Positions 2,853 to 64,000 of a stretch of 64,000 nucleotides of DNA are shown in pieces (position 1 is the first letter of the stretch; every line of letters starts with the position of its first letter). The stretch lies in IMG/VR virus record IMGVR_UViG_3300045588_000033, positions 1-64,000 of that record. The stretch is one strand, 5' to 3'. Position numbers and translations under genes: made by a program. The notes beneath the pieces are model-generated. The model did no database searches. It was not told where the DNA came from and saw nothing but the letters and a program-made list of their open reading frames with translations. Origin of the DNA: a virus.

Positions 2853-3093
2853 TCTTTTTTCTTTTAGTTTCCTCAAGAGGATTAAAATACTTATCCCATT
2901 TAGAAAAATGTATTGATTTAATAGTTGCTGCATCTATCATATCCATGTTACCTTTTTTTTCAGCAAGTTTTTCTAATGCTAAATGAATTAAATCTGCTGT
3001 AACATAATCTATATGAATTCCTACCATGTTAAGTGCTACTAATAAATAGTGCTGCTTATCTTCATAATCTTTAATTTCTACTTTTCTTTCCAT
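2842..3093 (-). CDS. Hypothetical protein
   Basis: 83-aa ORF. Confidence 0.65.
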   Translation of the reverse strand: MERKVEIKDYEDKQHYLLVALNMVGIHIDYVTADLIHLALEKLAEKKGNMDMIDAATIKSIHFSKWDKYFNPLEETKRKKNDK

Positions 3094-44800: not shown

Positions 44801-46032
44801 AAGCTTTAAATAATATGGGCAATCTTTCCGATACAGAAAAAGAAAAAAATGCTTCTGTTAGAGGATTTAGTAATGCTGCTGGCGCTATAGGTGGAGCAGT
44901 TTTAACTGGTGGGGCTACTACAGGAGCTGCAATTTCTGAAGGTTCAGAAGGACTAGCTACGGGATTAACTGGTCTAAAAGGTACTAACGAAAAGTTTGAC
45001 AATATTGCAAACTCACTTGGACAAGTAGGTTCGATAGCAGGAGGTTTTGTAGGAGGAAATCCTAGTGAAGCTATGGGAGCAATGGCTGGAAGTAAAGGAG
45101 CAAATGCTTTAATGCAGTTAGGAAGTAATCCAATGGCAGGAAATATTGCTAATATGGGACAAATGGCTAGTAATTTTGCTGATGGCGGGCACTTATATCC
45201 TGGCAATTACCCAACCTATAAAGACAATGCTGGCCCAATGGGACAACCATTAACTAATATGTACGCAGGTGGTGGATATAAAGAAGAGGATATCTATAGT
45301 CCTGACCCTAATTCAATAGTTACAGATGATACCTTAGCGCAGGAAGCTTATGATGCAAAAAATTATTTAGCAGGATTACCGAATCCTGATGGATCTTATA
45401 GTCCTATTTCAGGATTTAAAACTGATCAATCTACTACAAATATGCCTTCTGGATATACAGAAAATCTAGGAACTTATGCTGCAGGCATGGCTCCTATTAT
45501 CTATAATGCTTATCAAGGATTCTTAGCTAAAAAATCACCTTTGCCGAGTATTGAATCCATGACTGCTAGTTATGATCCTTACCGACAAAATATAGCACCA
45601 CAGTTAACAGCTGCAGATAGAGCTTTAGCAACTAGTCAACGTGCTGCTAAAGATGTTGCATCTGGAGGTGGGAGTTATATGGCTAACATGCAAAATTCTG
45701 CTAATCAATATAGAGATTATATTGATGAAGTAACTACAGGGAGAGAAAATGCTTACGGCCTTGCTAAACAAGAAGCTGACAAGTATAAAAATAAAAACAA
45801 AGTAGATGCTACTATGGCTAGATGGCAATTAGAAGCGCAGATGAAAGCTGCTAGACAAGAACATCAAAAAGAAGCATTATCGGGTATTAAATCTTATAGT
45901 GACGCACAAAAACAAAATGCTTTAGCAAGTGATTTTAATACAATGGCTGGTGAAGGTAATTATAGTTATGTTTACACTCCTTATTTAAAATCTTTGCAAG
46001 AAAAAAATAAAGGAAAGAAATCTAATAAATAA
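41854..46032 (+). CDS. Cargo/ejection protein with N-terminal GH73 (FlgJ-like glucosaminidase) domain and [YF]xxGG repeats
   Basis: QWQLESG...NYFGIK...GYATAPNY; GGTHEENPLGGIP; Q/M-rich linker; glycine-zipper hydrophobic segment. Confidence 0.75.
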   Translation: MSDNLTYGDIPPQIQQYLARPGVNKQKALEWFNLGISEPQTYNQAKLLAEAVGNSPEQAKVVAGQWQLESGGGASVGANYNYFGIKSHDKATRDKLSARGIAVTAGAETGTGEVFGGKKVKQQSSFMEFPSSFDAFQAHRVFLETNPRYEGALAAETAKDFALGLEAAGYATAPNYGSTLYNSYVAPKEKRPASGDVRPASLGKTKSKLGTSLPNQQPIVLPSMQTKSPELITDTLGVRPEISTSPSQANYIPENSAPIVMPESQAMKLTTPAGWFGSGKSIFANGGHLYPDGGKVGSSSGYAASRNPNAWRAEYAPLSYNYNDYLNSVGYRVGVSTPNVFPNISGKKSSKIDAKFPASIDVYQDYHDSSRAFEKDPTKYNIPGEYEGINTPTAINPLDISHIPYERGVRPANLGIEGRFGVHGLPGSANAEGSRVNARLEAIAGYSKHKKGYAGFEPGVDWKYSKKDPGNLNGMLNTKIGAGWPLQVTGKAPYSYVDTYAPNVPENTAPTDVGKYEEILGKGAPSRMQMGPKFTAQADFTASKGPLRGAQIGARGSALFDYNSGENTYHSVNTLNSDSTAVLGQAGNVDFARKQPILNAEIFGSYPIKAAAQKLNIQDKIAAAKEKDDRIFNDVTISGPSGNMGMPSFNKTIPTNNNPVGAMPGFSPETNSPVSEEFTQERYNTNPMMEYAKGGNMYANGGSFNNKGFRSLPTNVQNKIKSNSFADGGPMGQLTEFNGGGTHEENPLGGIPQGTAPDGAVNLVESGETKLNAENYIFSDQIKITKEIAKEFNLPEKLVGRTYAEASKKVNYSDSRREPGYDTIQDNSSKKNLDTLMRGQELQKQMEVQKKLGEIQSLDPNALAQIAQSYQPQGMPPQGGAPQGMEQEMPQGQPSPEEMAMMQQGQGQPPMDPAMMEQMMAQQGGQPMTMQYGGPMSYKCGGNMYDFGGTMRTIGSGAYGVGEGLLDTLTMGATDALTDKGYEALNNMGNLSDTEKEKNASVRGFSNAAGAIGGAVLTGGATTGAAISEGSEGLATGLTGLKGTNEKFDNIANSLGQVGSIAGGFVGGNPSEAMGAMAGSKGANALMQLGSNPMAGNIANMGQMASNFADGGHLYPGNYPTYKDNAGPMGQPLTNMYAGGGYKEEDIYSPDPNSIVTDDTLAQEAYDAKNYLAGLPNPDGSYSPISGFKTDQSTTNMPSGYTENLGTYAAGMAPIIYNAYQGFLAKKSPLPSIESMTASYDPYRQNIAPQLTAADRALATSQRAAKDVASGGGSYMANMQNSANQYRDYIDEVTTGRENAYGLAKQEADKYKNKNKVDATMARWQLEAQMKAARQEHQKEALSGIKSYSDAQKQNALASDFNTMAGEGNYSYVYTPYLKSLQEKNKGKKSNK

Positions 46033-46040
46033 GATTAATT

Positions 46041-48922: not shown

Positions 48923-51900
48923 ATGGAAGAAGATATAGATAAGCCAGTTAAGGTAAAAGGAGTAGACACTGGTAAAGAAGGTGGGACCTATTCTTCTGTA
49001 TTGCCTAAAACTAAATCTTCCGATGCTTACCGAGAAGCTAAAACTTCTGAAGAAGATTTTATACAGAAGTTAGGAAATATTGCTGAGACTTCTTCTAAAA
49101 CTACTATTGCAGGGACTGACTTCAATGTTGACGTAAGAGCTAGAGCTCTATATACTCCTATGAATTTGGCTAGCGGTATACGTGACCCAAATGAACGTGC
49201 TAAATTCTTAAACGAGCACGGGAACAAAATGGTTAAATTAATGGGCCAAGATGAATATGGCATCAGATTTAATCGTGAAATAAAAGATGTTGCAGCTTAT
49301 AAAGAAAAATTATATGATAAACATGTAGATAAATTTCTAGATGATTTAGATGAAAATCAAGGATTTCTGGCAGAAGCTGCTAATACTGCAGTAAAACTTG
49401 TAGGAGGAACTGCTGTAGCTGTAGGAGGATTAATACCTTTAGTATATGGTTTAGGAAAAGGATTAATTACTTGGGACGCTAAGAATATTTTCAATAACGG
49501 AATGTTTGATGCATGGGAAACCGTGGATCAAGGGATAAGTAATAAGTTTGCAGTATATGGAGGATCAGATTATGATTTAGACGAAACAGGAGCTCAAAAA
49601 GGTTTCTTCTCTAGATTTATATCTCATCCAATGAAATCTCTTAATGCAGATATAGCACCTGCAGTTTCTTTTGTAGCTAGTGCAGTTATTACTGAATTAT
49701 TAGCAGGAGCAGCAGCACCATTTACAGGCGGGGGGTCAGTGATAGCAGCAAATGCTATGTTGGCTGCAAGAGCTACTAGATTATTTGGAGGAGGAGCAAA
49801 AGCAGCACTACAAGTAGGAATAAAAGGTACTAACCTACTACTTCCTAAGGGTATGAAGGCTATTCGAGGTTTGGAAACTTTGAGTGACTATCAACAAGCT
49901 AAAAAGTTAGTAGTACTTTCTAAAAAATATAGAGAAACTTTAGGCACAGCAACTTCTATGGTAAGAAGTGCTGGTTATGAGTCTTCTTTAATTGCCAGAG
50001 ATACTTATGAAAGTACTTTGGAAAGTATGCTAAGTAAGCATGCAGAATTAAATGTAGATGCACAAGGTAACTCTATACAGCCTACAGAAGCAGAAATGGC
50101 ATTATATACTCAAAAAGCAGAAGATGCTTCTGAGTATGCTTGGTTTACTAATATTCCATTAGTAGGCTTTTCTAATATGATGCAATTTCCTAAGATTTTT
50201 GCAGGAGGGTATAAAGTAAATAAAGCATTATCTAAATTAAATCCAATAAAAGCTTCAGGAACTGTAATTAACAAAGAAGGTGTTAGAGTTGCTCGTTCAG
50301 AAGTATTAGGTAAATGGGGACGTACTGCCGTTGTAGGCGGTGCAATGGTAAAGTCAGGTATTACTGAAGGATTTGAAGAATTCTCTCAAGGAGTACTTGA
50401 GCATGGTTTAGCTGATTATTATACTGCAAAATATACTAAAAATTCTAGAGATACTTCTATTGGCTTAGTGTCAGCAATGAATACTGCTGCTAGAAATTAT
50501 GCAGGATCAACTGAGGGACAAGATTCTATGGCTATAGGATTCCTAATGGGGATGTTGGGAATACGTTTACCTATGAGGGTTAATAAAGACACAGGTAAAT
50601 TAGAAAAAGGTTGGGAAGTTTATGGTGGAGCATTCCAAGCTCGTAGAGATGTTAAAGAAAAATGGGCTAAAGATAAGATTAATGCTGATTACCTTAATGC
50701 GCATTCTACCCAAGATGCATTAAAAGCCAATTATAACAACATGGCTCGTGCGGTTACTACTCAGGAAGAACAAGATCTTGCAGAAAGTAGTGGAGATTTA
50801 TTTACTTATAAGAATAAGGAACATGAGCAAATGCACTCATTTGTTTCTACAAGAATAGAACTAGGATTAGAAGATACTATTTTTCAAGATTTAGATGCAT
50901 ACGAAGCATTACCTCTTGATGTATTTAACGAACAATTTAGTACTAAAGAAGTTAAAGAATTTACTGAAGAATCTAGAAAAGAAGTACTAGACAAAGCTAG
51001 ACAAGATACAAAGAGTGTTATAAAAGCAACTGAAGAAATAGATGCGTTATTTAATGATAACACTACTTTTGTAGATTTCTTAACTAGAAAAGATTATAAA
51101 GGTTTACAAGATCCTAAAAATATTACACAGGCTCTAAAAGAACAAATGATTTACTTACATTCTGCTAATAGTAATCTAGAAGGAAGAGAAGTTAAATTAG
51201 GTGAGGATGTGCAGAAGCTGACTAACGGTGAGATTTTACCTATGTTATTTAATAATATAGTAGGAAGAATAGCAGGTATTAAGAAGGACGACGGTAGTGC
51301 AGAAATGATTACATCGGCAGCAGAGTTATACAAAGCTGCTATGCAAGAATGGCAATCAAAAGACCCTAACGGTTATAATTTTCATGCAAAAGAAGTTGGG
51401 CCTATTCTACAAGACATAGTAAAAATTAAAGTAAAAAGAGAGCAGTTAAGTAATTTATACAAAGTATTATTTACTAAATCAGGTGCTAAAAACTTTGCAC
51501 AATTCTATGAATTATTAGAAAGCCACTACATTGATGAGGCGAATAAAAAGGTTTTAGAAAAAATAGCTGAAGATGCTAAGACTGCTAAAACTTCTCAAAA
51601 AGTCGATAAATTAAATAGAGATGAAAAATCTGTATCTGGAGAAACTCCAATTATGGATGCAAAAACTAAAGCAGAATTAGAGCAAGCTGACCAAGAATTA
51701 AATTCACTTTTTACAGAAACTATTCCTGAAGATGTTATTAAGAACTCGGATTTAGAAACATTAATACCTTCAGCATCTGCTAATACTATATTAGAGATAC
51801 TAGCAACTAAACCTGCTATTTTTAGATTACTAAAAAAGAGTCTATTAAACAAAGGAATTATATTAGGAGACACTGTTGATGAAGCTTTGCAGAATCTAAC

Positions 51901-52858
51901 AATGGACCCAAAATTAGGATTTAACATTGTAGCTGAATATAATAATATTAGAGCATCACTTTTGGCTAATGCCCCAGCAGTTAATGTAATATTAAACTTT
52001 GCGGATTCTAAAGACAGCAGTCAACCTAATCCTGGTGCAGAGAAAGTATTAACTCCTGAAGAAGAATTAGCAATAGAATTGGGTAGATTACAAGCTAAGT
52101 TTAACCCTGGGGATACGGTAACAGCTTCGGCAATTATAGGGGTAACTCACCATAAAGAAATAAAAAATAAGAAACTTACAAGAGACCCTAAAACAGGTAA
52201 ATTTATTAAAAAAGAAACTGATCAGCCTGTAGATAATGCTTTACTAAACTCTACTGAATTTTTATCTAATAAAGAATTAGAAGAGAAGTTTAAATATGCA
52301 GAATTTAAAATAGAAAAAACTATTCCTTGGAAAGATCGTAAAGGCAACACAGTAGAAATTACTGATGATAATATTAGAATAGGTGTTTATCACGAAGGAG
52401 TATTCTTAATGGATTTACCTGCTTTTCAAGAAGGTATGCCTGCAAATTTCTTAGCACTTCGTAAAGCTATTATAGCTCAAGAAACTGGAGTAGCAGCACC
52501 AAGTACTACTACTGCGACGGAAACAATTACAAAACAAAAAGTTCGTTTAAAAAATGTTATTAATGATTTTTCTATAGACGCACAAGCATTATTAAATAAT
52601 CCTAATCCTACTATAGAAGAATATAATGCCGTAATAAGTAACTATGAATTTGATTTATCTGCAGATTTACCTAGTAAAAAATTACGAGCTAATATAGAAT
52701 CCCAATTAAAAGATATTAAAAATACTTTTAAAATTACAATTCCAACTGCTACACCAAGAAGATCGGAAATAGATGAAAATTTTGATAATATAATAGAACA
52801 ATTACTTAAATCAAAAGTTAATGTGTTCTTTAAAGAAGAATTTAAAAAAGAATGTTAA
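48923..52858 (+). CDS. Large ejection protein with hydrophobic Gly/Ala-rich segments (candidate membrane channel)
   Basis: 1311 aa; TEGFEEFSQG motif, TM-like stretches; single Cys at the last residue. Confidence 0.7.
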   Translation: MEEDIDKPVKVKGVDTGKEGGTYSSVLPKTKSSDAYREAKTSEEDFIQKLGNIAETSSKTTIAGTDFNVDVRARALYTPMNLASGIRDPNERAKFLNEHGNKMVKLMGQDEYGIRFNREIKDVAAYKEKLYDKHVDKFLDDLDENQGFLAEAANTAVKLVGGTAVAVGGLIPLVYGLGKGLITWDAKNIFNNGMFDAWETVDQGISNKFAVYGGSDYDLDETGAQKGFFSRFISHPMKSLNADIAPAVSFVASAVITELLAGAAAPFTGGGSVIAANAMLAARATRLFGGGAKAALQVGIKGTNLLLPKGMKAIRGLETLSDYQQAKKLVVLSKKYRETLGTATSMVRSAGYESSLIARDTYESTLESMLSKHAELNVDAQGNSIQPTEAEMALYTQKAEDASEYAWFTNIPLVGFSNMMQFPKIFAGGYKVNKALSKLNPIKASGTVINKEGVRVARSEVLGKWGRTAVVGGAMVKSGITEGFEEFSQGVLEHGLADYYTAKYTKNSRDTSIGLVSAMNTAARNYAGSTEGQDSMAIGFLMGMLGIRLPMRVNKDTGKLEKGWEVYGGAFQARRDVKEKWAKDKINADYLNAHSTQDALKANYNNMARAVTTQEEQDLAESSGDLFTYKNKEHEQMHSFVSTRIELGLEDTIFQDLDAYEALPLDVFNEQFSTKEVKEFTEESRKEVLDKARQDTKSVIKATEEIDALFNDNTTFVDFLTRKDYKGLQDPKNITQALKEQMIYLHSANSNLEGREVKLGEDVQKLTNGEILPMLFNNIVGRIAGIKKDDGSAEMITSAAELYKAAMQEWQSKDPNGYNFHAKEVGPILQDIVKIKVKREQLSNLYKVLFTKSGAKNFAQFYELLESHYIDEANKKVLEKIAEDAKTAKTSQKVDKLNRDEKSVSGETPIMDAKTKAELEQADQELNSLFTETIPEDVIKNSDLETLIPSASANTILEILATKPAIFRLLKKSLLNKGIILGDTVDEALQNLTMDPKLGFNIVAEYNNIRASLLANAPAVNVILNFADSKDSSQPNPGAEKVLTPEEELAIELGRLQAKFNPGDTVTASAIIGVTHHKEIKNKKLTRDPKTGKFIKKETDQPVDNALLNSTEFLSNKELEEKFKYAEFKIEKTIPWKDRKGNTVEITDDNIRIGVYHEGVFLMDLPAFQEGMPANFLALRKAIIAQETGVAAPSTTTATETITKQKVRLKNVINDFSIDAQALLNNPNPTIEEYNAVISNYEFDLSADLPSKKLRANIESQLKDIKNTFKITIPTATPRRSEIDENFDNIIEQLLKSKVNVFFKEEFKKEC

Positions 52859-53334
52859 TTATGGAAAATTTATTAAGTGAAATAGAACAAAAAGAACTAA
52901 ACAAGTTTGGTTTACTAGAACTAACTGCTTCTCAGAATTACTTACATCTTAGTAATAGGATGAAAACTTTAGGCTATTTCGGTGCTGAAAAGTTTTTCTT
53001 AAGTGAATCTAATAGTGAAAGAGATCACTATGGTAAAATTGAAAAATTTGCTAATGATTTAGGCGGAGAAGTATCAGTAGAATCTTTGGTAAAAGTAACT
53101 AGCACTGTAAGTAATATTAAAGAAGCCTTAGAACATGCTTACCAAATGGAAAAAGATTTGATGATGGAGTACGAGAAAGCAGCAATACGCACCGACTTAT
53201 CATTAAAAGTTGTACTTTTGTTGCAAGACTTCACAACGCATCAAGTAGGAGCAGTAGGTGAATATGGAGATTTACTTGCTAGGTTAGCTCTTACAGATAA
53301 TATGTTGTTGTTCGATCAAGAACTTGGTAATTAA
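52852..53334 (+). CDS. Ferritin-like protein
   Basis: E..ASQNYL..., GAEKFF..ES.SERDH..K, ...QME, HQVGAVGEYGD, FDQEL; start may be 52861. Confidence 0.85.
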   Translation: MLIMENLLSEIEQKELNKFGLLELTASQNYLHLSNRMKTLGYFGAEKFFLSESNSERDHYGKIEKFANDLGGEVSVESLVKVTSTVSNIKEALEHAYQMEKDLMMEYEKAAIRTDLSLKVVLLLQDFTTHQVGAVGEYGDLLARLALTDNMLLFDQELGN

Positions 53335-53345
53335 AAAATTAAATT

Positions 53346-56300
53346 ATGGCTTGTCAATACTGGTATAATAATGCTTGGCGTTCTGAAGAAGAATTTAAGA
53401 ATATTTTAGATAGTGGATTATTAGACAATTTAATCAAGGATAAGAAAGTATCTATCCCAGGGTTAAAAGCTGATGCCAAAAAAGCTAGAGAATTTGCTAA
53501 GGCTGGTATTAAAAAACAACCATTAAGATTACGTATTATAAATAAAATACAAGCACGTATTAATAATGAGAGAGAGCCTATAACAGGTGCTTTTGTTAAT
53601 AATAATCCTGTAAAAGTTTTAGCTCAGGCAACTGCTGAGAAAAAACAAAAAAATCCTAAAGCGGCTCAAATTCCTTTTTTAATTGTAATTAAGGTTAAAG
53701 GAGAGCTGAAAGTAGGTAAAGAAACTAAGAATACTGAAAAACTTAGAAACGAGATATTAAATTCAAAAATATCTGGAACTATTGTTGAGAATCTAAAAGA
53801 AGGTATTCCTTATATGATGGTTCCCTCTGCATACGGATTATACCCTATACAGATGAAATCTCACGCTGTTAAAGATACAACAGCATTTACGGGATTAAAA
53901 ACTGCAGTTAAGGCCCTACAAACAGCCAATCCTCAAGATTTCTTCCTTACTAAAAAGAACATTGAGAAAATGTTATACCAGACTACTATTGACATAGAAG
54001 CTGGTAAATATAAAGTAGTAAGACAAGACCCTACAACTAAATTAGCAGTTACTAAGTTATTTAGCACTGCTGAGGAAACTAGTGCTTATTTAGGCAATTT
54101 ATTATATCGTTGTGACTATACCAAGATTAACTCAGTAGTAGGAGGAACAGACTATAATACACAATTAGCTAATATTGGAGCAGTCTCTACAGATTTATTT
54201 TCTGAAGACGGCAACTTCTTTAACTCTAGTTCTTTTGTAATAGAAGCTTACCAAATATCTCCTGAAGATAAAGCAACTTTAGAATTACTTATAGAATCTA
54301 AAGTAGGGCCTAATCCTGCTTCTGTATCTTTTTCTAATGCAGTAGCACAACAAAATACTACAGCTCCTGCAGCAAGTATTAATAAAGCAGACGAAAGTCC
54401 TATCTTTAATACTCCTATAGACCAAGTAAATGCTGCTATTGCAGCTTCTACTGGAGAAATTATACGTGATTATACAATTGCCCCAAATACTAATTTTCCT
54501 ATTGCTAGAGTTATTGCTTCTGTAAAAGATGGAGTAGTTACGGTACAATCTATCCAGTTAATTTCTAAATCTAAGCAAGTAAATCAAAGTGATAAAATTA
54601 CAATTTCTCCTAAAAAACCTACATCCAAGCAACAACAAGCTGCTACTAAAGCATTTTTTGAATCTAAAGATATTATTGCTATAAAAGAAAAAGCTACCAA
54701 AACTCCTGCACCGACAGGTGTTGTAGATTGGTTAAATTTAATATCTAAAGCAACTTCTTCAAAAGAATTAGATGCTATTGTCGATCAGATAGACAAAGCA
54801 GATGCTATGACGCAAGCTTTGATGGAAGACATAGCTACTACAAGACTTATATTACCTGAAACTTCTCCTACTACAAAAAGTCCTTCTGCAATTACTGCAG
54901 CACTGCAGCAGATGGTGGATCAAGAGTTAACTGATTTAGCGCCAGAAGTAGAAGAAGAAGGAATGGATACTTTAGAAGGGATGATAGCTCGTTCTAAAGA
55001 AACAGTTGCTGAAGAACCTATAGCTGAAGAATCTATGGATTTTGGATCTTTATTTGACGATGAAGTAGATATTGAGGGTAAAACTTTAGAAGAAGTTCCT
55101 AATGCTGTTAAAACAAGATTAAGACAAACTCCTAAAACAGACGGAACTAAGTGGTCTAAAAAAGAAGAGATTACCAAATTAAGAGAAATGATTGGTAATC
55201 GTAGTAAAAAAAATAATGGTAAAGTAAGAATATTTAAATCTTTAGAAGCTTTAGAAGAATATTTACCTGCAGAGACTTACGAAATGCTTCTTGAAGCAAG
55301 AAAACATGGAAAACAACTTCACGGTGTATTTACAGAAGCAGCGTTGTATTTAAGTGAAAATGCAGCAGCAGGAACTACTTATCACGAAGCTTTCCACGTA
55401 ATATTTAATTTAGCCCTACCTCTAGAAACAAGAGTTAAGATTCTAAATGAAGCATTAGAAAAATATCCAGAAGAATTACCCCTAGTAAAAGTAGTAGATG
55501 CATCAGGTAAGGAAACTTTCAGAATGCCTACTTTTATTGAAATAGAAGAATTACTTGCTGATAAATTTATGGACTACGTTATGTCCAAAGAAGAAGATAA
55601 ATTTGGAGATAAAGACTTTGAATTTACTACTTTAGGTAAGACTTTTAGAGGTATGTATAGAATGTTGGAAGTATTCTTCCACCCTTCTAGAAAAATAGAT
55701 ATAGACCAATTATTTGAAGATATAAATTGGGGAGTATATAAGTACTCTGTCAATTTTAGAAATACAGTATTGCCATTCCAAGTTAAACTTAAACAAACTG
55801 ATCCCGATCATAAATATGATAACGGTGAGGAAGAGCGTCAAGCTTTTGTTTACATGCAATCTAGAATGGATGATATTTTTGATGTTTATAGAAGTATCAG
55901 CATTGAAAACGAGAATAAGACTGAAAGAGAGATTATTAATACCATGGGAGTAGATAAATTCTACACACAGTTATTAAGTAATATCTTTGCAGATGCTAAA
56001 TTAAACAGAAATAATAGTGCAGGACAATACATAATGAAATTGTACTCTGTGTTAACTAACGGAGGTACTGCTGCATCAACTGTTGAAATAGAAGGTAAAT
56101 TATTTAAACAATTTAATAAACCTACAGACTTACTACAAAGATTTAATCAATCTTTAGTACTAAGAGGTTTACACATGAGCTACAAAGGTGCAGTCGCTGC
56201 CAAGGATAATTTAATTGGCGATAGTGCTAATCCTATAGAAACTAACGAAGAAAATACAAAATCGGAAGCATGGATGAAAGGGAACATAGAAATGGACCCT

Positions 56301-59300
56301 AGAGACAGCATGAGTCAGAAACTCAAAAGTTTCTTTGCTACTATTCCTAAATTTGTTTCCAATAGAAAGGACGCTAGGCCTCTACTAAACGTATTTAATG
56401 TACAAGAAAAAGAAGAAGGCGGTAAAGTATTTGGTTACCTATTATCTCGTATTTCTGATAGTTATTCTGTAGAAAATATGATGGAAAAGCTTCAAGCTAT
56501 TAAAACTGAGAAGCCCTACATTGTGCACATTATAGAAAAAATGGAACAAGATTCCACATTGAAAACAGAATTGTGGCTAGCAATAGGACAAAAGCATTTT
56601 GCTACTTTCTCATTTGCTTATGATGATAATGGTGAATACAAAATAATTAAATCTAATAGAAAGAATTTTGGAAATATAGTTAGAGACGAAATTATTGGTG
56701 GATTCTTAATACAAGGTAATCCATTGTTTGAAAAAGATGCAAAAGGCCGAACTAATTTTGAAGATATTAATTTAGAAAAAGTAGATGCTTTATTAGAAGC
56801 TCTTACAAATATTAAGTTAAGTGCTTCTACAATAAATAAAGCAGAAGGAAATACTAAAAAAGCTGCTGAATTATTATTTAAAGTGCTTTCTAATACAATT
56901 ACTAAAGTCAATATTAATATTTCTCCTGAAGATATTTACACAGTGTGGAATCCTGAAACAGGAAAAGCTTCTTGGAAAAATATTGAAAATTTAATAAATA
57001 CCTTAATAGATATCACTACTGAGTTAAGCAATAATAAAAATCCATTCTTAGGTTTAAAACCAGACGAGTTAATAGTAGATAGGAAAGTAAAGGGAGATAA
57101 GAATTCTATAGAAAAATTAGGTAGAATTTTACAACCTGCTTTAGAAAAAGAAGTAGTTTCTGCATTTAGAAATATAGAGGGAAATACTGTGTACAATTTA
57201 ATTTTATCTAATTTCTTAAATAAACAATTAGATAAGTTTAAAAATGAAGAATCTTTTCAAGAGTATTTAGAACAAATATCTAAAGATTCTTTACTAAGCA
57301 ATCTTCCATTTATAAAAGATTTAAATGACCCAGACTCTGGAGTTATGAAGGCTCTAAATGTAATTATATTAGACGGTCTAGCTAGAAAAGGTAAGAAGAA
57401 GTCGGTAACTTACGAGAAGATGTCGGATATAGAAATGATGGCTACAGAGTTAGCAATGTTTCAGAATTCAAATTCTCAATCAAAAGCAAAATACAAATTA
57501 CCAATTCCTTCAGATGCGCCAACAATTCCATTCTTGGAATCAAGTAAGTTTACAAAAGAAGAATTAGTAGATAAGTTAACTGCTACAGCTAAGGCAGAAT
57601 TTTCTAGAATTACTAAATTACGAAGTAATACTAATAAAGACCTTGCATTAATACCTAATTATTTAGAAAAAGGTGTAGACTTTCAAATATTATCTTTTTT
57701 AAATAGTAAGATTGATAAAACTAAGGTATTTAATGAAAAGCAAGTTAGAGCTCTAATAGAGGAATTCTTAAATAATAAATTTATACAAGACCATATTGCA
57801 TATTACAAGAAAAAAGGTATTATAACTGCAGTAAATCCAACTACAGGAGAAATTGCTTTTGCTGACGGTTTAATAAGTAAGAGTGTAAAAAACAAAACTG
57901 AGTTCTTTAAAGACTTTTTGTATAACACTTATTATATGAATACTCAGTTAACTACAGTATTTGGGGGAGATCCTGCTTTTTATAAGAGCACTGTAGATTA
58001 TCAGAAAAGATATAAGCAAATTATGAGTCCAGGTATCTACACAGATACTGCAAATTTACCTGATACTTATAATGCTATTATTCTTAATGATGAAGAAGCT
58101 CCTACAGCTAAAGAAACTGTAGAAGTTATAGTAGAATTAATTAAAAATTCTGATTTAAATAAAGAAGAAAAAGCAGAATTAACAGCTTTATGGAAAACGG
58201 CTAAGCACAATCTTACAGATGCTGCTACTTTTATTAGTCCTTTACGTAAGAAGCAACAATTGCAAGGATTAAAAAGATGGACTCCTCCACACGAAGATGC
58301 TTATCAACGGGAAATTAAAGGCTTGCCTTCTTTGCCTGAAGATTTAAATTTATTCCAACCAGAAAAACCTTTCTTCTTTACGCAAAGAATAGTTAATGGG
58401 ACAGTTGTTCCTACGCAAATTAAAAACTCTGAGATAGTTCTTACAAGAGAATTAGCTTATAAAAAAGATACAGACGGTAATTTTAAATTTCCTAAGTTAG
58501 TTGCTATTTATAATACTTTAATGAATGGTATAGAAACTGAAGAAGGAGTTACTAGAATAGATACTGCTATTTTTGAATCAGCTGTTAAAGTAGGCGCTTT
58601 AGGTAATTCTACTAATGCTAAAGGCAAAGTAAGATTTACTTCTTACGAATTACAAGAAGACGGTACTTACGCTTTACCTGCAGATACTCAAGTAATAACT
58701 CTTAAAAGTGAAGAATGGAGATTACAGCAAGAAACTCCTGAACACTACATAGACTCAGAAGGTAACTTTGGTACCCAGTTGAGAAACCTTGCTATTGGAG
58801 ATATGGACCTTACAGGTACGTATAATATTAACGGCAAAAGTATGACAGGCGAAGACGTTGCTAAGTTATACCAAGAATTAATTGCTGAAGATTTAAAATC
58901 TTCTTTTGAAGAATTAAAAGAAGTATTTGAAAACAAGGATGGCTCAATAGATTACGAGCGTCTAGCAGAAATGCTTAGAAAAGAGGTTATAAGTAGAGAC
59001 ATGGGTCAAGAATATTTAGATGCATTAGCACCTATTAAAGATGCCATGGGGAATACTACTACTACTCTTCCTTTGTACCATCCTTTGATTTCTTACAAAA
59101 TGATGGCAGTAATGAACTCTTTCTTTCAGAATAGAGTTACTAAGCAAAAAATTGCAGGAGGTGCAGTAATTAATGCTTCTTCTTACGGTGTAAATGAAGA
59201 CTTAAAGTTTAAAGTAGATAAAAAACTAGGTAAAATTACTCTTCAAGCAATGATGCCTTGGACATCCAGAAAGTATTTCCCATTAGATGCTAATGGAGAA

Positions 59301-62300
59301 GTAGATATGGCTGCTATTAAAGCAAATGCTCCAGAATTATTAAGAATTATTGGATATAGAATTCCTAACGAAGATAAGTACTCAACATTTAATATTGAGA
59401 TAGTAGGATTTACTCCACCAAATATGGGGGGATTAATGATGCTGCCTGTAGAGGTAACCACTTTAGCGGGGCTTGACTTTGATATTGACAAAATGTATAT
59501 GATGGCTAGGTCATTCTATGTCAATAAGAGAGGTAATCCTGTTTATATTAAATACGTAGATAAAGTAGAATCTGAAGAAGATGCACAGACTTTAGCTAAA
59601 AATATATTCTCTAATTTTAAAGATTATAAAAGATTTGTTCTTAAGAATGTTGAAGCCAAGAACGTCGATAAGATGTTAGAAGGACGAACAGATTTATTAG
59701 ACAAGTTAGCTCTTGACCCTGCTATAATGGCGGATAAAGAGGATATCAGCAAATCTATTAAAGAATTAAAAGAAGAGAAAAAAGCTGCTATCTTACTACA
59801 CGGCCCAGATAGTAGATTTGTAAAGTATATTCAAGATAGTTTAGATGATTTATACCTAGCTATTTCCGATGCTGTCCCTTTTAATGAAACACAAACTCCT
59901 TTAACAGCTAAACACGAAGAAGCAATTAACTTTATTGCTAAGAAATTATTAGACAAAGATTTTAATGCTGTAGAATTTAATTCATCATTAGCAAGAGATA
60001 ATAAAAAATTAGAGATTATTCAAGGTATTTTTGAGAATAAGAACACTGCATTGTCTATACTTAACCCTGGAAACTTTGACTCTCTTAAAGAAAATGCTGC
60101 TAGAATTAGATTGCTACAAGCAGGAAAAGAAGTAGAAGGATTAACTAGAGCACAACTTATTAAAGAAACAGAAGCACTAGATAACGAAGAAGATTTTAAT
60201 ATTAACTATCCTTCTACGCAACTAGAGCTATTCAGAAGAAATATGACGGGTAAGCAGTTGATTGGTATTTTTGCTAATCACAATACTCACCATGCTAAAG
60301 CGCAATATACTGACTTGCAATTAAAAACTCCAATTGTTATAAACGGAGTTTCTTATTCTATGTTGAATCAAGTTAAGAATGAACAAGGATCTCGTATTTC
60401 AAAATCACTAGCAACTGACTTAGCAGCTGTAGTGGATACTGCAAAAGATCCAATTGCATCTTTCTTAAATATGAATACGTTTACTGCTAATACACAAGCA
60501 CTGTTGCAGCGATTAGGAGTAAATGATAGAACAGTTTTTGCTCTATTGAACCAGCCTATTATTTTGGAATTAACTCAAAAGTATTTTAACGATAAAGGGT
60601 CGCTATCTGAGGAAAAGCACTTAATGGAAATTAAAGCAAAGTGGCTAAAAACTTTAACAGAAAAGCTAGAAGGAGCAGATATAGATTTAAAAGAATATAA
60701 AGATAATTTAGAATTAAATTTAGAAACTCTAGAAAATAATATCTATCCTAGTAAGACCTTAGAATATTATGCTGAACAATATAGAGCTATTAATGCTTTT
60801 GAAGTTTACTATAAATATGCTACTGAATTAGGCACAGGTGTACAAGCTGCTAAAGTTGATACAACTGGAGTAGGCCCTACAAGTGCTACTAACTTCATCA
60901 TAGTTAATAAGCAAAATAGATTACTAGAAAAAATAAAAGGAAATTCTAATACTATAATTGGATTAGACGAAGTATTTAAAACAGGTACTCGTCAAATAAT
61001 GATTCCTGCATTTAATAAATGGGGTATAGAAGGTCCTATTAATATTCTTAATAAAATATTTGCATCTATTGGTAATTTTAATGCTCAAGGAGAATTAAAT
61101 TTCTCTTCTCTTGGAGAATTAAAAAATTGGTTCGACAAGCAAAAAGGTGATTTTTCTTCTTTAACTGAAAAAGAAGCAGGAATGATTGACATAAATTACA
61201 TCAATTTCTTGGCAAGTAAATTTCCTTTCTTTGACTACAGCAAAAGTGCTAATATTCTAAATAATTTACCCGATGCTTTAGTCGCTTTTAAAAAGGAAAT
61301 GCCTACTAATTCTCCTTATAGTTCATTGCTGAATTCTTTGTATGTAGTAGCTCCCGACGGTAGTTCTAATATCAAAAGAATTGACTTTTACACTACAGGT
61401 AAAAATTCTCTAGATACTCAGAGAAGTAGAGAAGCTTGGGAAAGAATGTTAATAGATGAGAATCCTGCAGTAAAAGAATTGGCACTTAAATTAGTTCAAT
61501 ATACTTTCTTCTCTGCAGGTTACGGATTTGGACCATTTACTTTTGCTAATATAGTTCCAGTTAAGTTTTGGACAAATAAATATCAAATAGAAAATAATAT
61601 TGTAGATTCTAAGGGAAGACCATTTAATCTTTTCTTATCGTCTGCTTTAGAGTCTGATTTCTTGAAAAATGATCCAGTAGTTGCGGATAGATTTAAGAAA
61701 CAATTTATTCAAAATTACGCAGATAAAGAGCAGTTTACTAAAACTGTTAAAGTAGACAAGGTATTTACACCAGGTGCAGGAAAAACTAAAGAACAATTAG
61801 ATTTCGATACTACAATGGCTGCCAAAGAAGCTCCACAAGGAGTTATTATGACTGCTAAAGGTAATTTAATTGTTAATAGAGATAAGAATCCTCAATTGCT
61901 TCCTTTTGGTCTTAAAGCTGCTCCTGTAAAATATATTAAAGTTTATAATAAAAAAGGAGGATTTACTTTATACGAATATAAAGAAACTGCTTTTGACCAA
62001 AAAAACAATGATATTTATGAAGGAAAAACTAAAATAGACACTGTAACATATTTCCCTATAAATACTTTAGGTACTTCAAACTTTGCTTTAGAATTTAATT
62101 ATAATGATGATATTTCAAAGTCAATACTTGAGGGTACTAAAAAAGTGGCAACTGCTAGTCCTATATCACAAATGGACGCAGAAATGGACAGAATAACTCA
62201 AGAATCACTAGCAGGCATAGAACAAGATGCCTTACAAGATATTAGATCTCTAAGTCCTACTACTGCTCCAACTACTAGCACTAGCCCTTTAGATCTTTTA

Positions 62301-62549
62301 GGACAAATGGCAGATAGAAATTTAGAACCTGAAAAAGAAACTCCTGCAGCTACTAAATCTCCATTAGATTTACTCGGGCAGATGGCAGATACAAGTAGAA
62401 ACGCTGAGGGATTGTTTGAAAAATTAGGAGGAGATTCTTATAAAGAATATACAGATGCAGGCGGTACTGAGATAAGTAAAAAAGATTTCTTATCTTTAAG
62501 CCAACAATCTCAGGATAATGCAATATTTCAAGCTAAAAATTGTAAATAA
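53346..62549 (+). CDS. Giant virion-packaged single-chain RNA polymerase (phi14:2 gp66-like) with zincin-like domain
   Basis: GYRIP and AGLDFDIDK catalytic loop (59475-59492); HEAFH...EELLAD zincin motif (55383-55397). Confidence 0.9.
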   Translation: MACQYWYNNAWRSEEEFKNILDSGLLDNLIKDKKVSIPGLKADAKKAREFAKAGIKKQPLRLRIINKIQARINNEREPITGAFVNNNPVKVLAQATAEKKQKNPKAAQIPFLIVIKVKGELKVGKETKNTEKLRNEILNSKISGTIVENLKEGIPYMMVPSAYGLYPIQMKSHAVKDTTAFTGLKTAVKALQTANPQDFFLTKKNIEKMLYQTTIDIEAGKYKVVRQDPTTKLAVTKLFSTAEETSAYLGNLLYRCDYTKINSVVGGTDYNTQLANIGAVSTDLFSEDGNFFNSSSFVIEAYQISPEDKATLELLIESKVGPNPASVSFSNAVAQQNTTAPAASINKADESPIFNTPIDQVNAAIAASTGEIIRDYTIAPNTNFPIARVIASVKDGVVTVQSIQLISKSKQVNQSDKITISPKKPTSKQQQAATKAFFESKDIIAIKEKATKTPAPTGVVDWLNLISKATSSKELDAIVDQIDKADAMTQALMEDIATTRLILPETSPTTKSPSAITAALQQMVDQELTDLAPEVEEEGMDTLEGMIARSKETVAEEPIAEESMDFGSLFDDEVDIEGKTLEEVPNAVKTRLRQTPKTDGTKWSKKEEITKLREMIGNRSKKNNGKVRIFKSLEALEEYLPAETYEMLLEARKHGKQLHGVFTEAALYLSENAAAGTTYHEAFHVIFNLALPLETRVKILNEALEKYPEELPLVKVVDASGKETFRMPTFIEIEELLADKFMDYVMSKEEDKFGDKDFEFTTLGKTFRGMYRMLEVFFHPSRKIDIDQLFEDINWGVYKYSVNFRNTVLPFQVKLKQTDPDHKYDNGEEERQAFVYMQSRMDDIFDVYRSISIENENKTEREIINTMGVDKFYTQLLSNIFADAKLNRNNSAGQYIMKLYSVLTNGGTAASTVEIEGKLFKQFNKPTDLLQRFNQSLVLRGLHMSYKGAVAAKDNLIGDSANPIETNEENTKSEAWMKGNIEMDPRDSMSQKLKSFFATIPKFVSNRKDARPLLNVFNVQEKEEGGKVFGYLLSRISDSYSVENMMEKLQAIKTEKPYIVHIIEKMEQDSTLKTELWLAIGQKHFATFSFAYDDNGEYKIIKSNRKNFGNIVRDEIIGGFLIQGNPLFEKDAKGRTNFEDINLEKVDALLEALTNIKLSASTINKAEGNTKKAAELLFKVLSNTITKVNINISPEDIYTVWNPETGKASWKNIENLINTLIDITTELSNNKNPFLGLKPDELIVDRKVKGDKNSIEKLGRILQPALEKEVVSAFRNIEGNTVYNLILSNFLNKQLDKFKNEESFQEYLEQISKDSLLSNLPFIKDLNDPDSGVMKALNVIILDGLARKGKKKSVTYEKMSDIEMMATELAMFQNSNSQSKAKYKLPIPSDAPTIPFLESSKFTKEELVDKLTATAKAEFSRITKLRSNTNKDLALIPNYLEKGVDFQILSFLNSKIDKTKVFNEKQVRALIEEFLNNKFIQDHIAYYKKKGIITAVNPTTGEIAFADGLISKSVKNKTEFFKDFLYNTYYMNTQLTTVFGGDPAFYKSTVDYQKRYKQIMSPGIYTDTANLPDTYNAIILNDEEAPTAKETVEVIVELIKNSDLNKEEKAELTALWKTAKHNLTDAATFISPLRKKQQLQGLKRWTPPHEDAYQREIKGLPSLPEDLNLFQPEKPFFFTQRIVNGTVVPTQIKNSEIVLTRELAYKKDTDGNFKFPKLVAIYNTLMNGIETEEGVTRIDTAIFESAVKVGALGNSTNAKGKVRFTSYELQEDGTYALPADTQVITLKSEEWRLQQETPEHYIDSEGNFGTQLRNLAIGDMDLTGTYNINGKSMTGEDVAKLYQELIAEDLKSSFEELKEVFENKDGSIDYERLAEMLRKEVISRDMGQEYLDALAPIKDAMGNTTTTLPLYHPLISYKMMAVMNSFFQNRVTKQKIAGGAVINASSYGVNEDLKFKVDKKLGKITLQAMMPWTSRKYFPLDANGEVDMAAIKANAPELLRIIGYRIPNEDKYSTFNIEIVGFTPPNMGGLMMLPVEVTTLAGLDFDIDKMYMMARSFYVNKRGNPVYIKYVDKVESEEDAQTLAKNIFSNFKDYKRFVLKNVEAKNVDKMLEGRTDLLDKLALDPAIMADKEDISKSIKELKEEKKAAILLHGPDSRFVKYIQDSLDDLYLAISDAVPFNETQTPLTAKHEEAINFIAKKLLDKDFNAVEFNSSLARDNKKLEIIQGIFENKNTALSILNPGNFDSLKENAARIRLLQAGKEVEGLTRAQLIKETEALDNEEDFNINYPSTQLELFRRNMTGKQLIGIFANHNTHHAKAQYTDLQLKTPIVINGVSYSMLNQVKNEQGSRISKSLATDLAAVVDTAKDPIASFLNMNTFTANTQALLQRLGVNDRTVFALLNQPIILELTQKYFNDKGSLSEEKHLMEIKAKWLKTLTEKLEGADIDLKEYKDNLELNLETLENNIYPSKTLEYYAEQYRAINAFEVYYKYATELGTGVQAAKVDTTGVGPTSATNFIIVNKQNRLLEKIKGNSNTIIGLDEVFKTGTRQIMIPAFNKWGIEGPINILNKIFASIGNFNAQGELNFSSLGELKNWFDKQKGDFSSLTEKEAGMIDINYINFLASKFPFFDYSKSANILNNLPDALVAFKKEMPTNSPYSSLLNSLYVVAPDGSSNIKRIDFYTTGKNSLDTQRSREAWERMLIDENPAVKELALKLVQYTFFSAGYGFGPFTFANIVPVKFWTNKYQIENNIVDSKGRPFNLFLSSALESDFLKNDPVVADRFKKQFIQNYADKEQFTKTVKVDKVFTPGAGKTKEQLDFDTTMAAKEAPQGVIMTAKGNLIVNRDKNPQLLPFGLKAAPVKYIKVYNKKGGFTLYEYKETAFDQKNNDIYEGKTKIDTVTYFPINTLGTSNFALEFNYNDDISKSILEGTKKVATASPISQMDAEMDRITQESLAGIEQDALQDIRSLSPTTAPTTSTSPLDLLGQMADRNLEPEKETPAATKSPLDLLGQMADTSRNAEGLFEKLGGDSYKEYTDAGGTEISKKDFLSLSQQSQDNAIFQAKNCK

Positions 62550-62558
62550 ATTTATTTT

Positions 62559-64000
62559 ATGTCACATTGTATAAATACTTCACATCCAGAATATTTAGAG
62601 TTATTACTTCAAACTGAATTAAGTCCAGGTGTTTTAAAAGCTAAAATAGCTACTTGGATGGATAATAATACTGCGGATAGATTTCCTACAGTCTCTGATA
62701 TATTAGATGCTACAGATGATGTTTTATACAATATAGAAAAAGAAACGCATGCTTCCGCAAAAGCTAAAATACTTAAAAAAGTAAATGCTAATAAAGAAGG
62801 TTATGTTTCTCCCTTTAAATATCCAGAACTACTTACATTAGTAGGAATGTATAATAGGAGTCAGCCTAAAAAATCTTTAGAATTACTTAAAGCAGCTTCA
62901 GGAAATTATTATATTAATGTTATAGGCACTGCATTACAACTAACTTCTAAAACTAACGAACAACCTATAAAGGAATTAGAAACTAAATTAAGAAGTTGGG
63001 CAAGAACCCATGGTATCGCTATTGAAGCGATGGAAGATTTAATGAGAAGATTTGATGGTCGCTATAAAGACGGAGCATTAGGATTAGCAGATTTTACTAA
63101 ACAATTAATAGGATTAGCAGACGGTGCTAAAATGGATACTCTGCCTGAAGAAATTGCTCACTTTGCAGTTAGAATCTTAAAAGATAGAGGAGATATAGCG
63201 GTACTAAGAGCATTGGAAGTAGTTAATTTAACTACTGAATATGCAGAAGTATTAGAAGAATACGAAGGTGTTTATACTACCGAAGAGCAATTTAGGGAAG
63301 AAGCATTGGGTAAAATACTAGCCAAAGAAATAGTAGGTCAATATACTAAGCCAGAGGTTGCAAGACCAGAAACCAAAGGATTCCTTGCATATTTAAATGC
63401 TATAAAGGAAAGATTTTTAAAGTGGGTAAAAACTAATTTCAGCAAAGGCACACCTGCTAGAACAGATTTAGAGAATTTTATACAACCATTAGCGCAATCT
63501 ATATTGCAAAATGAGCGATTGGGAGAAATACAAGTGCAAAGAGAATTAGATGTGCTATATCAATTGCCTAAAGAGGAAGAAGAAGAAATTCCCGAAGCAG
63601 AACAGCCTGTAGATTTAGCAATGGAAAGAAAACAAAAATTCTTACAAGAAGCTAAATTACAGATGATAAATCGTATGACGCAATTAGAGCGTGGTGCTAA
63701 AAGTCAGTTAGCTATAGACAGATTAAAATCAGAAATAACAATATTAGAATATCAAATAAGCACTGGACAATTAGATGCAGCTATAAGTAGTTTTGTTATA
63801 TTGGCTCAAAAAGAATTAGGTCAAATTTATAATGTATTAGAAAAAGGAATAGATAGCAGCACTATGAATCCTGGAGTAATTGTAATGTCCAAAGGATTTA
63901 TAGATATGTATTCTAATTTATTTAATACTTTCCTAGCAGATATCTACGATTGGAGAGTTCCTAAAGAAGTTCGACAAGACTTAATAAATACTATCCAAAC
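62559..64000 (+). CDS. Large virion protein, truncated by window edge, with degenerate zincin-like motif
   Basis: Frame from MSHCINTSHPEY apparently open to the edge; TLPEEIAH...EEALGK. Confidence 0.8.
   Translation, partial: MSHCINTSHPEYLELLLQTELSPGVLKAKIATWMDNNTADRFPTVSDILDATDDVLYNIEKETHASAKAKILKKVNANKEGYVSPFKYPELLTLVGMYNRSQPKKSLELLKAASGNYYINVIGTALQLTSKTNEQPIKELETKLRSWARTHGIAIEAMEDLMRRFDGRYKDGALGLADFTKQLIGLADGAKMDTLPEEIAHFAVRILKDRGDIAVLRALEVVNLTTEYAEVLEEYEGVYTTEEQFREEALGKILAKEIVGQYTKPEVARPETKGFLAYLNAIKERFLKWVKTNFSKGTPARTDLENFIQPLAQSILQNERLGEIQVQRELDVLYQLPKEEEEEIPEAEQPVDLAMERKQKFLQEAKLQMINRMTQLERGAKSQLAIDRLKSEITILEYQISTGQLDAAISSFVILAQKELGQIYNVLEKGIDSSTMNPGVIVMSKGFIDMYSNLFNTFLADIYDWRVPKEVRQDLINTIQ

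What the first reader, a model, noticed from the sequence alone, without database searches (positions are those of the whole stretch)
48923..64000. Terminal cysteines could chain the giant ejected proteins head-to-tail
Seen: the 1311-aa protein has its only Cys as the last residue (KKEC); the 3067-aa RNAP starts MAC and ends NCK with only one internal Cys that I can find; the next protein starts MSHC. Each junction in gene order thus offers a C-terminal and an N-terminal Cys in otherwise Cys-depleted proteins. Inference: disulfide links make a covalent train pulled in order through the tail and released in the reducing cytoplasm, replacing a single polyprotein.
Basis: partly seen in the sequence, partly recalled or inferred. 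Interest (0 to 1): 0.72.

Follow-up and report, generated by a model that had tools for sequence, protein, structure and literature searches.

The report
Terminal cysteine pairs chain crAss cargo
Three giant proteins that this crAss-like phage packs and injects, its RNA polymerase among them, are almost free of cysteine except for one at each end that faces the next protein. Relatives keep such a pair wherever the genes are split and lack it where they are fused, so the proteins are probably tied end to end, most likely by disulfide bonds.

Summary
Protein A (48923-52858, 1311 aa) has its only Cys as its last residue. Protein B (53346-62549, 3067 aa, zincin motif plus two-barrel RNA polymerase) has Cys 3, 256 and 3066. 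Protein C (62559 onwards, 1397 aa in the whole genome) has only Cys 4. The cargo block holds 0.07% Cys against 1.03% in the rest of the genome.

Every homologue whose alignment reaches the relevant end keeps the terminal Cys. No A N-end (0 of 73) and no C C-end (0 of 84) has one. The Cys pair moves with the split point in crAss001, DAC15 and phi14:2. It is absent in natural A-B and B-C fusions, where the short terminal modules are also missing.

The same rule holds in Cellulophaga phage phi4:1 and cyanophage Lbo-JY46. In cyanopodophage A4 a disulfide of this geometry (gp27 Cys1715 to gp26 Cys5) has been seen by cryo-EM.

Best reading: a redox-cleavable, head-to-tail disulfide chain A-B-C that stands in for a polyprotein. 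The chemistry and the "train" idea are untested for crassviruses.

This scan has already noted the same pattern on other crAss-like genomes.

The parts
48923..52858 (+). Protein A, 1311 aa, homologue of the N-terminal part of crAss001 gp47. Its only Cys is the last residue (codon 52853-52855).
   Evidence: In 71 of 73 homologues a Cys lies 0-2 residues from the C-end, and in 70 it is the only Cys. The 2 homologues without it are truncated.
52852..53334 (+). Ferritin-like ORF, 160 aa, no Cys, inserted between A and B. It is probably not part of the chain.
   Evidence: Pfam Ferritin 1.5e-13. The same gene sits at the same place in 7 related loci at 66-97% identity.
53346..62549 (+). Protein B, 3067 aa, with a zincin-like HEAFH motif and a two-barrel virion RNA polymerase. 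Cys3 (53352-53354) and Cys3066 (62541-62543) sit at the two ends. Cys256 (54111-54113) is lineage-specific.
   Evidence: It matches PDB 6VR4 (phi14:2 gp66) at E 3.6e-32. Cys3 is invariant and Cys3066 nearly invariant in alignment A2.
55383..55397 (+). HEAFH (residues 680-684 of B), zincin metalloprotease motif.
   Evidence: Invariant in 29 B homologues; sequence read.
59475..59489 (+). DFDID (residues 2044-2048 of B), the catalytic motif of the two-barrel RNA polymerase.
   Evidence: D2044, F2045, D2046 and D2048 are invariant in A2; sequence read. The motif is described for phi14:2 gp66 in bioRxiv 10.1101/2020.03.07.982082.
62559..64000 (+). Protein C, homologue of crAss001 gp49 and phi14:2 gp65. 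It is 1397 aa in the genome (to 66752) and is cut by the window end. Its only Cys is Cys4 (62568-62570), inside a conserved N-terminal module M.C[IV]N.SHPEF.
   Evidence: Cys4 is an invariant column in 30 homologues down to 21% identity.
41854..48857 (+). Upstream cargo proteins: 1392 aa with a glucosaminidase domain and the crAss cargo-1 domain, and 938 aa. Both are Cys-poor (1 and 0 Cys) and have no terminal Cys. They give context and are not part of the chain.

Best explanation
A, B (protease motif plus RNA polymerase) and C are the three RNA-polymerase-associated cargo proteins that crassviruses pack in the capsid and eject into the host. They behave as one polyprotein cut into pieces.

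Inferred: each cut is bridged by a short C-terminal module ending in Cys and a short N-terminal module starting M-x-(x)-Cys. These modules dock, and their thiols form an intermolecular disulfide in the virion. This gives a linear chain A-S-S-B-S-S-C.

Inferred: because each Cys lies within a few residues of a chain end, the joint is almost as thin as a peptide chain. It could therefore pass the narrow tail channel in an unfolded state. The rest of the proteins avoid Cys, as ejected proteins of other podophages do.

Inferred: the reducing host cytoplasm then separates the three proteins.

Shown here: the pattern, its conservation, its co-variation with gene architecture, and the loss of the terminal modules in fusions. 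Shown by others: a disulfide of this geometry in phage A4, and real disulfides in the crAss001 virion.
For: 1. Window pattern and its improbability.

2. Conservation: A has a C-end Cys in 71 of 73 homologues. B has an N-end Cys in 46 of 49 and a C-end Cys in 48 of 49. C has an N-end Cys in 74 of 84. Every exception fails to align to that end of the query. A N-ends (0 of 73) and C C-ends (0 of 84) never carry Cys. In about 60 loci the gene upstream of C ends with Cys 0-3 residues from its end.

3. The Cys follow the split, not the homologous position. crAss001 gp47 is A plus B profile positions 117-756 and ends RCNS. gp50 is the rest of B and starts MSKRC. Neither has a Cys at the site of the window's A|B cut. 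DAC15, phi14:2 gp67/gp66/gp65, a helicase-fused clade, p-crAssphage-type LMMB and crAss002 behave the same way.

4. Fusions lose the pair.
   - A-B fusions P0123, P0124, P0126 and P0128, and those in loci L007 and L009, keep only the B C-end Cys, and their C proteins keep the N-end Cys.
   - P0127 (B-C fused, 4895 aa) has no Cys at all.
   - LMMB (B-C fused) has no Cys at that site.
   - In P0123, A's last ~125 aa and B's first ~55 aa are missing.
   - A FastTree of the B core needs at least 4 architecture changes.

5. Same rule outside the order: Cellulophaga phi4:1 (1957 aa ending in Cys; 517 aa with Cys 4 and 516; 1914 aa with Cys 3) and cyanophage Lbo-JY46. The head of the Lbo-JY46 protein downstream of its A homologue is 45% identical to B residues 3-35.

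6. Precedent: in phage A4 the gp27 Cys1715 to gp26 Cys5 disulfide was seen by cryo-EM (PMC12002296). In the A-4L genome these are the only Cys of those proteins. The crAss001 virion holds real disulfides, and gp47, gp49 and gp50 are in the virion (PMC10172136).

7. Complex prediction, B tail plus C head: weak support. Score 0.40, best control 0.00. The mark was reached by 58 of 80 solved complexes and 2 of 110 mismatched pairs. At 0.60 or under it was reached by only 7 of those 80 and by both mismatches that passed. The runs agree in at least 37% of contacts, and partner pLDDT is at least 53.
Against: - No disulfide between these proteins has been observed in any crassvirus. The cargo was not resolved in the crAss001 maps.
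- Many hosts are strict anaerobes with a reducing cytoplasm, so when and where oxidation happens is unknown.
- The comparative data show that the facing ends work together. They do not show the chemistry: a bridging metal or plain docking would give the same pattern.
- The number of independent architecture changes is small (about 4), and the tree is a quick one.
- One locus (L066) has B's last Cys 62 residues from the end, with small Cys-free ORFs before C.
- Part of the locus survey was seeded with the C N-terminal motif itself, which biases it.
- Ordered ejection as a thread is pure inference.
Confidence: 0.65

Rival explanations
1. The facing terminal modules dock without a covalent bond, and the two thiols hold a bridging metal ion (a zinc clasp or hook type of joint) rather than forming a disulfide.
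For: A metal site can form in a reducing cytoplasm, which suits anaerobic hosts. Many C heads have His near the Cys (MSHCINTSH, MHCINISH). B carries a zinc protease motif. The comparative pattern fits any joint made by the two ends.
Against: Only one residue per end is conserved. His is not among the invariant or near-invariant columns of the C head and is absent in whole clades (MGCVNKSS, MAHCVNRSS). The A tail and B head offer no other ligand (FKKEC and MACQYWY). Two thiols alone make a poor zinc site. The one solved case (A4) is a disulfide.
Confidence: 0.12
2. Each terminal Cys acts on its own. It might anchor that end to another virion part (portal, capsid wall, another cargo protein), or act as a cysteine-switch ligand that keeps the zincin protease or the self-inhibited polymerase latent until reduction.
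For: Some cargo proteins of other phages have a lone terminal Cys with no obvious partner: LMMB 861 aa, crAss002 557 aa, Lbo-JY46 674 aa. phi14:2 gp66 is packed in a self-inhibited form whose activation is unexplained. Fusion removes the ends, so it would remove any end-specific function.
Against: Cys appear only on the ends that would be joined in the fused protein. They never appear on A's N-end or C's C-end (0 of 73 and 0 of 84). They are always gained or lost in pairs. A switch on one protease cannot explain four Cys on three proteins.
Confidence: 0.1
3. The pattern is chance or inherited baggage with no function.
For: Close relatives share it by descent. Cys depletion alone is a known trait of ejected proteins (PMC11445570).
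Against: Random placement has probability about 9e-11. The Cys are invariant down to 21% identity. They are re-created at a different split point and lost in fusions. They are also present in phages with no detectable homology.
Confidence: 0.01

Closest known systems
Cyanopodophage A4 (Anabaena phage A-4L) ejection proteins gp27 and gp26 in the pre-ejectosome (PNAS 2025, PMC12002296)
   Same: Both are large Cys-poor ejected proteins. The upstream one has its only Cys 2 residues from the C-end (Cys1715 of 1717). The downstream one has its only Cys at position 5. Cryo-EM shows these two bonded, with the C-terminal helix of gp27 lying in a cleft of gp26.
   Different: There is no detectable sequence homology to A, B or C. 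A4 has two proteins, not three, and no RNA polymerase. The paper treats the bond as a local stabiliser and does not note a rule tied to gene splits or fusions.
RNA-polymerase cargo block of cultured crassviruses: phi14:2 gp67-gp66-gp65 (gp66 is PDB 6VR4) and crAss001 gp47-gp50-gp49
   Same: These are homologous proteins, detected in virions by mass spectrometry, and they carry the same terminal Cys pattern. Fused polyprotein forms are known in the literature.
   Different: The papers I could read say nothing about these Cys. They propose proteolytic cleavage for the fused forms and leave the relation between the three proteins open. The split point between the first two proteins differs from the window's.
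Cysteine-free ejection proteins of Schitoviridae (N4 gp50, DEV gp71-gp73)
   Same: A giant virion RNA polymerase and its partners strongly avoid Cys. This is thought to ease passage through the envelope (PMC11445570).
   Different: There the polymerase is one chain and Cys are absent altogether. Here the chain is cut, and one Cys is kept at every cut end.
Docking domains of modular PKS/NRPS assembly lines (from my own knowledge, an analogy only)
   Same: Short matched C- and N-terminal modules set the order of separate polypeptides that replace one long chain.
   Different: Those are non-covalent, unrelated in sequence and not ejected. No Cys lock is involved.

Membership tests
Crassvirus virion RNA-polymerase cargo module | Middle protein is a two-barrel RNA polymerase with a DFDxD motif, related to phi14:2 gp66 | tested here: met
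   PDB 6VR4 match at E 3.6e-32. GLDFDID is invariant.
Crassvirus virion RNA-polymerase cargo module | Zincin-like HExxH protease motif in the block | tested here: met
   HEAFH at B 680-684 is invariant in 29 homologues.
Crassvirus virion RNA-polymerase cargo module | Lies downstream of the muzzle and cargo-1 genes of a crassvirus | tested here: met
   Pfam crAss_MUZ 6.8e-128 and crAss_CARG1 3.1e-24 lie just upstream.
Crassvirus virion RNA-polymerase cargo module | Proteins are present in the virion and ejected | not testable with these tools
   Shown by mass spectrometry only for relatives (crAss001, phi14:2, phi4:1).
A4-type head-to-tail disulfide between ejection proteins | Sole or near-sole Cys within a few residues of the C-end of one protein and of the N-end of the next | tested here: met
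   compare A-4L.
A4-type head-to-tail disulfide between ejection proteins | The disulfide is seen in the particle | not testable with these tools
   Needs non-reducing gels, cross-link mass spectrometry or cryo-EM of virions.
A4-type head-to-tail disulfide between ejection proteins | Sequence homology to gp27 and gp26 | tested here: not met
   blastp and hmmsearch with --max give E above 0.1. This is an analogue, not a shown homologue.
Split intein or protein trans-splicing | Intein (Hint) halves at the two ends, with Cys as the first intein residue and the first residue after it | tested here: not met
   No Hint or intein family appears in the Pfam scan. A ends at the Cys itself, and the B and C heads have Cys at position 3-4 within modules of only 35-80 aa.
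Zinc clasp or zinc hook joint | Two ligands (CxxC, or Cys plus His) from each partner | tested here: not met
   Only one conserved Cys per end, and no conserved His.
Fully cysteine-free ejected proteins (Schitoviridae type) | No Cys at all in the ejected proteins | tested here: not met
   The block is strongly depleted (0.07%), but the terminal Cys are conserved.

The most novel reading that the evidence does not exclude
Terminal Cys-capped docking modules may be a general, portable device. With it, phages from the human gut to the sea (Crassvirales, Cellulophaga phi4:1, cyanophages) could cut a giant ejected polyprotein at any point and still deliver it as one thread. Reduction in the host cytoplasm would act both as the release step and as the switch that frees the self-inhibited virion RNA polymerase. 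This would be a redox substitute for a maturation protease.
Probability: 0.3. Interest if true: 0.85.

Novelty: new variant of a known kind. Interest (0 to 1): 0.68.

Why it matters
How crassviruses, the most abundant viruses of the human gut, store about 700 kDa of polymerase-associated protein and deliver it through a narrow tail is an open question. It is stated as open as recently as 2026 (PMC13434306). A covalent, reducible chain would explain three things:
- fixed 1:1:1 stoichiometry;
- the order of exit;
- why these proteins shun cysteine everywhere except at their facing ends.

It would also link the fused and split gene forms seen across the order. The idea is testable at once on cultured phages with a non-reducing gel and cross-link mass spectrometry. 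It also gives annotators a simple rule for finding which cargo proteins belong together, even when their genes are far apart or on opposite strands.

Tried and rejected
**Searches that found nothing**
- Megablast of the region against the phage records: no match.
- PHROGs for the cargo proteins: only an endolysin domain in cargo 1.
- PDB sequence and profile searches with C: no match.
- Papers combining Crassvirales, cargo protein and cysteine: none. The crAss001, phi14:2 and N4 papers do not mention these Cys.

Fusion loci were fetched with the search for related loci instead.
I did not resend them. The C head went in as the window's own sequence, without an alignment.
- NC_024711 is not in the phage collection. 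CrAssphage LMMB was used for the p-crAssphage type.

**Results too weak to use**
- Single-sequence folds of the B tail (pLDDT 53) and the A tail (pLDDT 42) are too poor. They are merely helical.
- The first tree run did not finish. FastTree was used.

**Readings rejected**
- Split intein, lipobox or CaaX-type signals, and a zinc clasp; the reasons are in the membership table.
- The alternative pairing, in which B closes on itself and A bonds to C, is less economical. An A-B fusion would then orphan one Cys of each pair, yet the two that remain face each other.

**Not counted as evidence**
- Fragmented B and C frames in L086, L088 and L091 look like frameshifts or stop-codon recoding. They were not counted either way.
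Full report
**What is there.** The window is a crassvirus. Pfam finds the crassvirus muzzle protein (36567-40961) and the cargo-1 domain (41854-46032) just upstream of the finding. The finding covers three long + strand ORFs.
- A is 48923-52858 (1311 aa).
- B is 53346-62549 (3067 aa).
- C starts at 62559. It is cut by the window end and runs to 66752 (1397 aa) in the 91.5-kb genome.
A has only Cys1311, its last residue. B has Cys3, Cys256 and Cys3066 of 3067. C has only Cys4.

**What the proteins are.** B is the virion RNA polymerase.
- It matches the crystal-structure sequence of phi14:2 gp66 (PDB 6VR4) at E 3.6e-32.
- It carries an invariant GLDFDID motif and an invariant HEAFH zincin motif.
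- A is homologous to the front part of crAss001 gp47, and C to crAss001 gp49 and phi14:2 gp65.

These are the three "RNA polymerase-associated" cargo proteins found in crAss001 virions by mass spectrometry. They are thought to be ejected partly unfolded through the tail (PMC10172136).

**More than chance.** The block from the 280-aa ORF to C has 6 Cys in 8545 residues (0.07%). The other 62 ORFs have 174 in 16959 (1.03%). If the existing Cys of A, B and C were placed at random, the chance of finding them within four residues of the four facing ends is about 9e-11.

**Conservation.** Searches of the large protein collection gave 73 A, 49 close B and 84 C homologues, down to about 21-30% identity.
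- A: 71 of 73 end with a Cys 0-2 residues from the end, and in 70 it is the only Cys.
- B: 46 of 49 start with Cys at 3-5 (MAC[QK]YWY), and 48 of 49 end with Cys within the last 8 residues (..KNC, ..KNCK).
- C: 74 of 84 start with Cys at 3-5 (M.C[IV]N.SH).
- Every exception is a sequence whose alignment does not reach that end of the query, meaning a truncated or mis-started gene call.
- No A N-end and no C C-end has a Cys (0 of 73 and 0 of 84).
- Cys4 of C and Cys3 of B are invariant columns.
- In about 60 viral loci the gene upstream of C ends with Cys 0-3 residues from its end. That survey was partly seeded by the C N-terminal motif, so only the upstream Cys counts as an unbiased observation.

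**The Cys follow the cut.** In crAss001, gp47 (2341 aa) is A plus B profile positions 117-756, and gp50 (2412 aa) is the rest of B. The cut therefore lies inside what is one protein here.
- gp47 has its only Cys 3 residues from its end.
- gp50 starts MSKRC and has a Cys 8 residues from its end.
- gp49 has only Cys5.
- gp47 lies on the opposite strand from gp50 and gp49. Gene order is therefore irrelevant, and the domain order of the fused form is what counts.

The same three-protein pattern holds in:
- DAC15;
- phi14:2, where gp67 has only its last residue as Cys, gp66 has Cys 3 and 2179 of 2180, and gp65 has only Cys 3;
- a clade whose middle protein carries helicase domains and 9-13 internal Cys, yet always starts MGC and ends ..KYC.

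**Fusions lose the pair.**
- P0123, P0124, P0126 and P0128, and the fusions in loci L007 and L009, are A-B fusions of 4100-4950 aa. Each has a single Cys, at the B C-end. Where the downstream C gene was read intact (loci L007, L008, L009), it keeps its N-end Cys.
- In P0123, A residue ~1185 runs straight into B residue ~57. The last ~125 aa of A and the first ~55 aa of B are missing, both Cys included.
- P0127 (4895 aa) joins B to C. It lacks about 80 aa from each side of that junction and has no Cys at all.
- The p-crAssphage type (CrAssphage LMMB) has a 1957-aa protein ending ..SCM, followed by a 4070-aa RNAP fusion that starts MSC and has no Cys near its C-end. crAss002 is alike.
- A FastTree of the B core places the window type as one clade, sister to one fused clade. 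A second fused clade sits elsewhere. At least four architecture changes are needed. This is a quick tree with an arbitrary root.

**Beyond the order.**
- Cellulophaga phage phi4:1 (not Crassvirales) has three mass-spectrometry-verified virion proteins. The A-like one (1957 aa) has its only Cys as the last residue. A 517-aa protein has only Cys 4 and 516. The C-like one (1914 aa) has only Cys 3.
- Cyanophage Lbo-JY46 has an A homologue whose only Cys is its last residue. The next protein (2748 aa) has only Cys 4, and its residues 4-36 are 45% identical to B residues 3-35.
- A note from this scan pointed me to cyanopodophage A4, and I read the paper. Cryo-EM shows a disulfide between gp27 Cys1715 and gp26 Cys5, with the C-terminal helix of gp27 in a cleft of gp26 (PMC12002296).
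- In the A-4L genome these are the only Cys of a 1717-aa and an 1114-aa protein. I find no sequence homology to A, B or C.

**Mechanism.** The simplest account is a head-to-tail chain A-S-S-B-S-S-C.
- Matched terminal modules dock, and their Cys lock the joint.
- Keeping the Cys within a few residues of the ends keeps the joint thin enough for a chain to be threaded.
- Avoiding Cys elsewhere prevents wrong links, a trait already noted for ejected proteins of N4-like phages (PMC11445570).
- Reduction in the cytoplasm would free the three proteins and could replace the proteolytic cleavage proposed for the fused forms.
- crAss001 virions do contain disulfides in the tail and at the portal vertex, so oxidation of virion proteins happens in this group.
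- A complex prediction of the B tail (2948-3067) with the C head (1-100) gave weak support only. The score was 0.40 against a best control of 0.00. The mark was reached by 58 of 80 solved complexes and 2 of 110 mismatches. At 0.60 or under it was reached by only 7 of the 80 and by both passing mismatches. The runs agree in at least 37% of contacts, and partner pLDDT is at least 53.

The disulfide, the threading and the reductive release are inferred. None has been shown for a crassvirus.

**Rivals.**
- A metal-bridged joint would fit the comparative data, but only one ligand per end is conserved.
- Independent roles for each Cys do not explain why only facing ends carry them, nor why they come and go in pairs.
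- Chance is excluded.
- One locus (L066) remains an unresolved exception.

**Novelty.** I found no paper that describes terminal Cys in the crassvirus polymerase proteins. A single disulfide of this kind is published for phage A4. The crassvirus case adds a three-link chain around the RNA polymerase and a rule tied to gene splits and fusions. This scan has already noted the same pattern on many other crAss-like genomes. My tests here were done independently on this window and agree with those notes.

Noticed in passing
window 52852-53334: A ferritin-like ORF (160 aa, no Cys) sits between A and B. The same gene lies at the same place in 7 related loci. In L002 and L003 it is 96-97% identical, although A there is only 67% identical. 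It is absent upstream of B in other members of the clade (L048, L054, L056). Its role is unknown. Its ATG overlaps A's final Cys codon.
   Followed up: partly
window 26187-27017 and 27035-27670: A 276-aa protein with 11 Cys ends GCNGGC, and the next ORF (211 aa, weak collagen-repeat match) starts MCGCKD. These are Cys-rich facing ends in what look like fibre genes, possibly another disulfide joint.
   Followed up: partly
window 54111-54113 (B Cys256): The one internal Cys of B is kept only in the nearest relatives (positions 251-261) and is absent in more distant ones. No partner is evident.
   Followed up: no
L105:2200-4785; L106:2159-3832; L104:6938-8962: Cargo-type proteins of other phages have a lone Cys near one end with no obvious facing partner. 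CrAssphage LMMB (861 aa) has Cys 860. crAss002 (557 aa) has Cys 550. Lbo-JY46 (674 aa) has Cys 5.
   Followed up: no
G000 66700-66752 (C-end of protein C) and its homologues: C proteins end in a conserved acidic tail, ..[DY]N[GE]FN, without Cys. This may be a docking motif of another kind.
   Followed up: no
L066:189-10001: The B homologue's last Cys lies 62 residues from its end, and two small Cys-free ORFs lie before C. This is the only unresolved exception to the rule.
   Followed up: partly
L086, L088, L091: B and C homologues are broken into several frames without terminal Cys, some with overlapping ends. They look like frameshifts, introns or stop-codon recoding rather than true splits.
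   Followed up: no
window 41854-46032: The cargo-1 homologue carries an N-terminal glucosaminidase (GH73-type) domain (Pfam 1.2e-15; PHROGs endolysin). This suggests wall digestion during entry.
   Followed up: no
L100:1843-2502; L096:7142-9994; L032:14426-15979: The middle protein of the chain can be very small (219, 950 and 517 aa) and still has Cys at both ends.
   Followed up: partly
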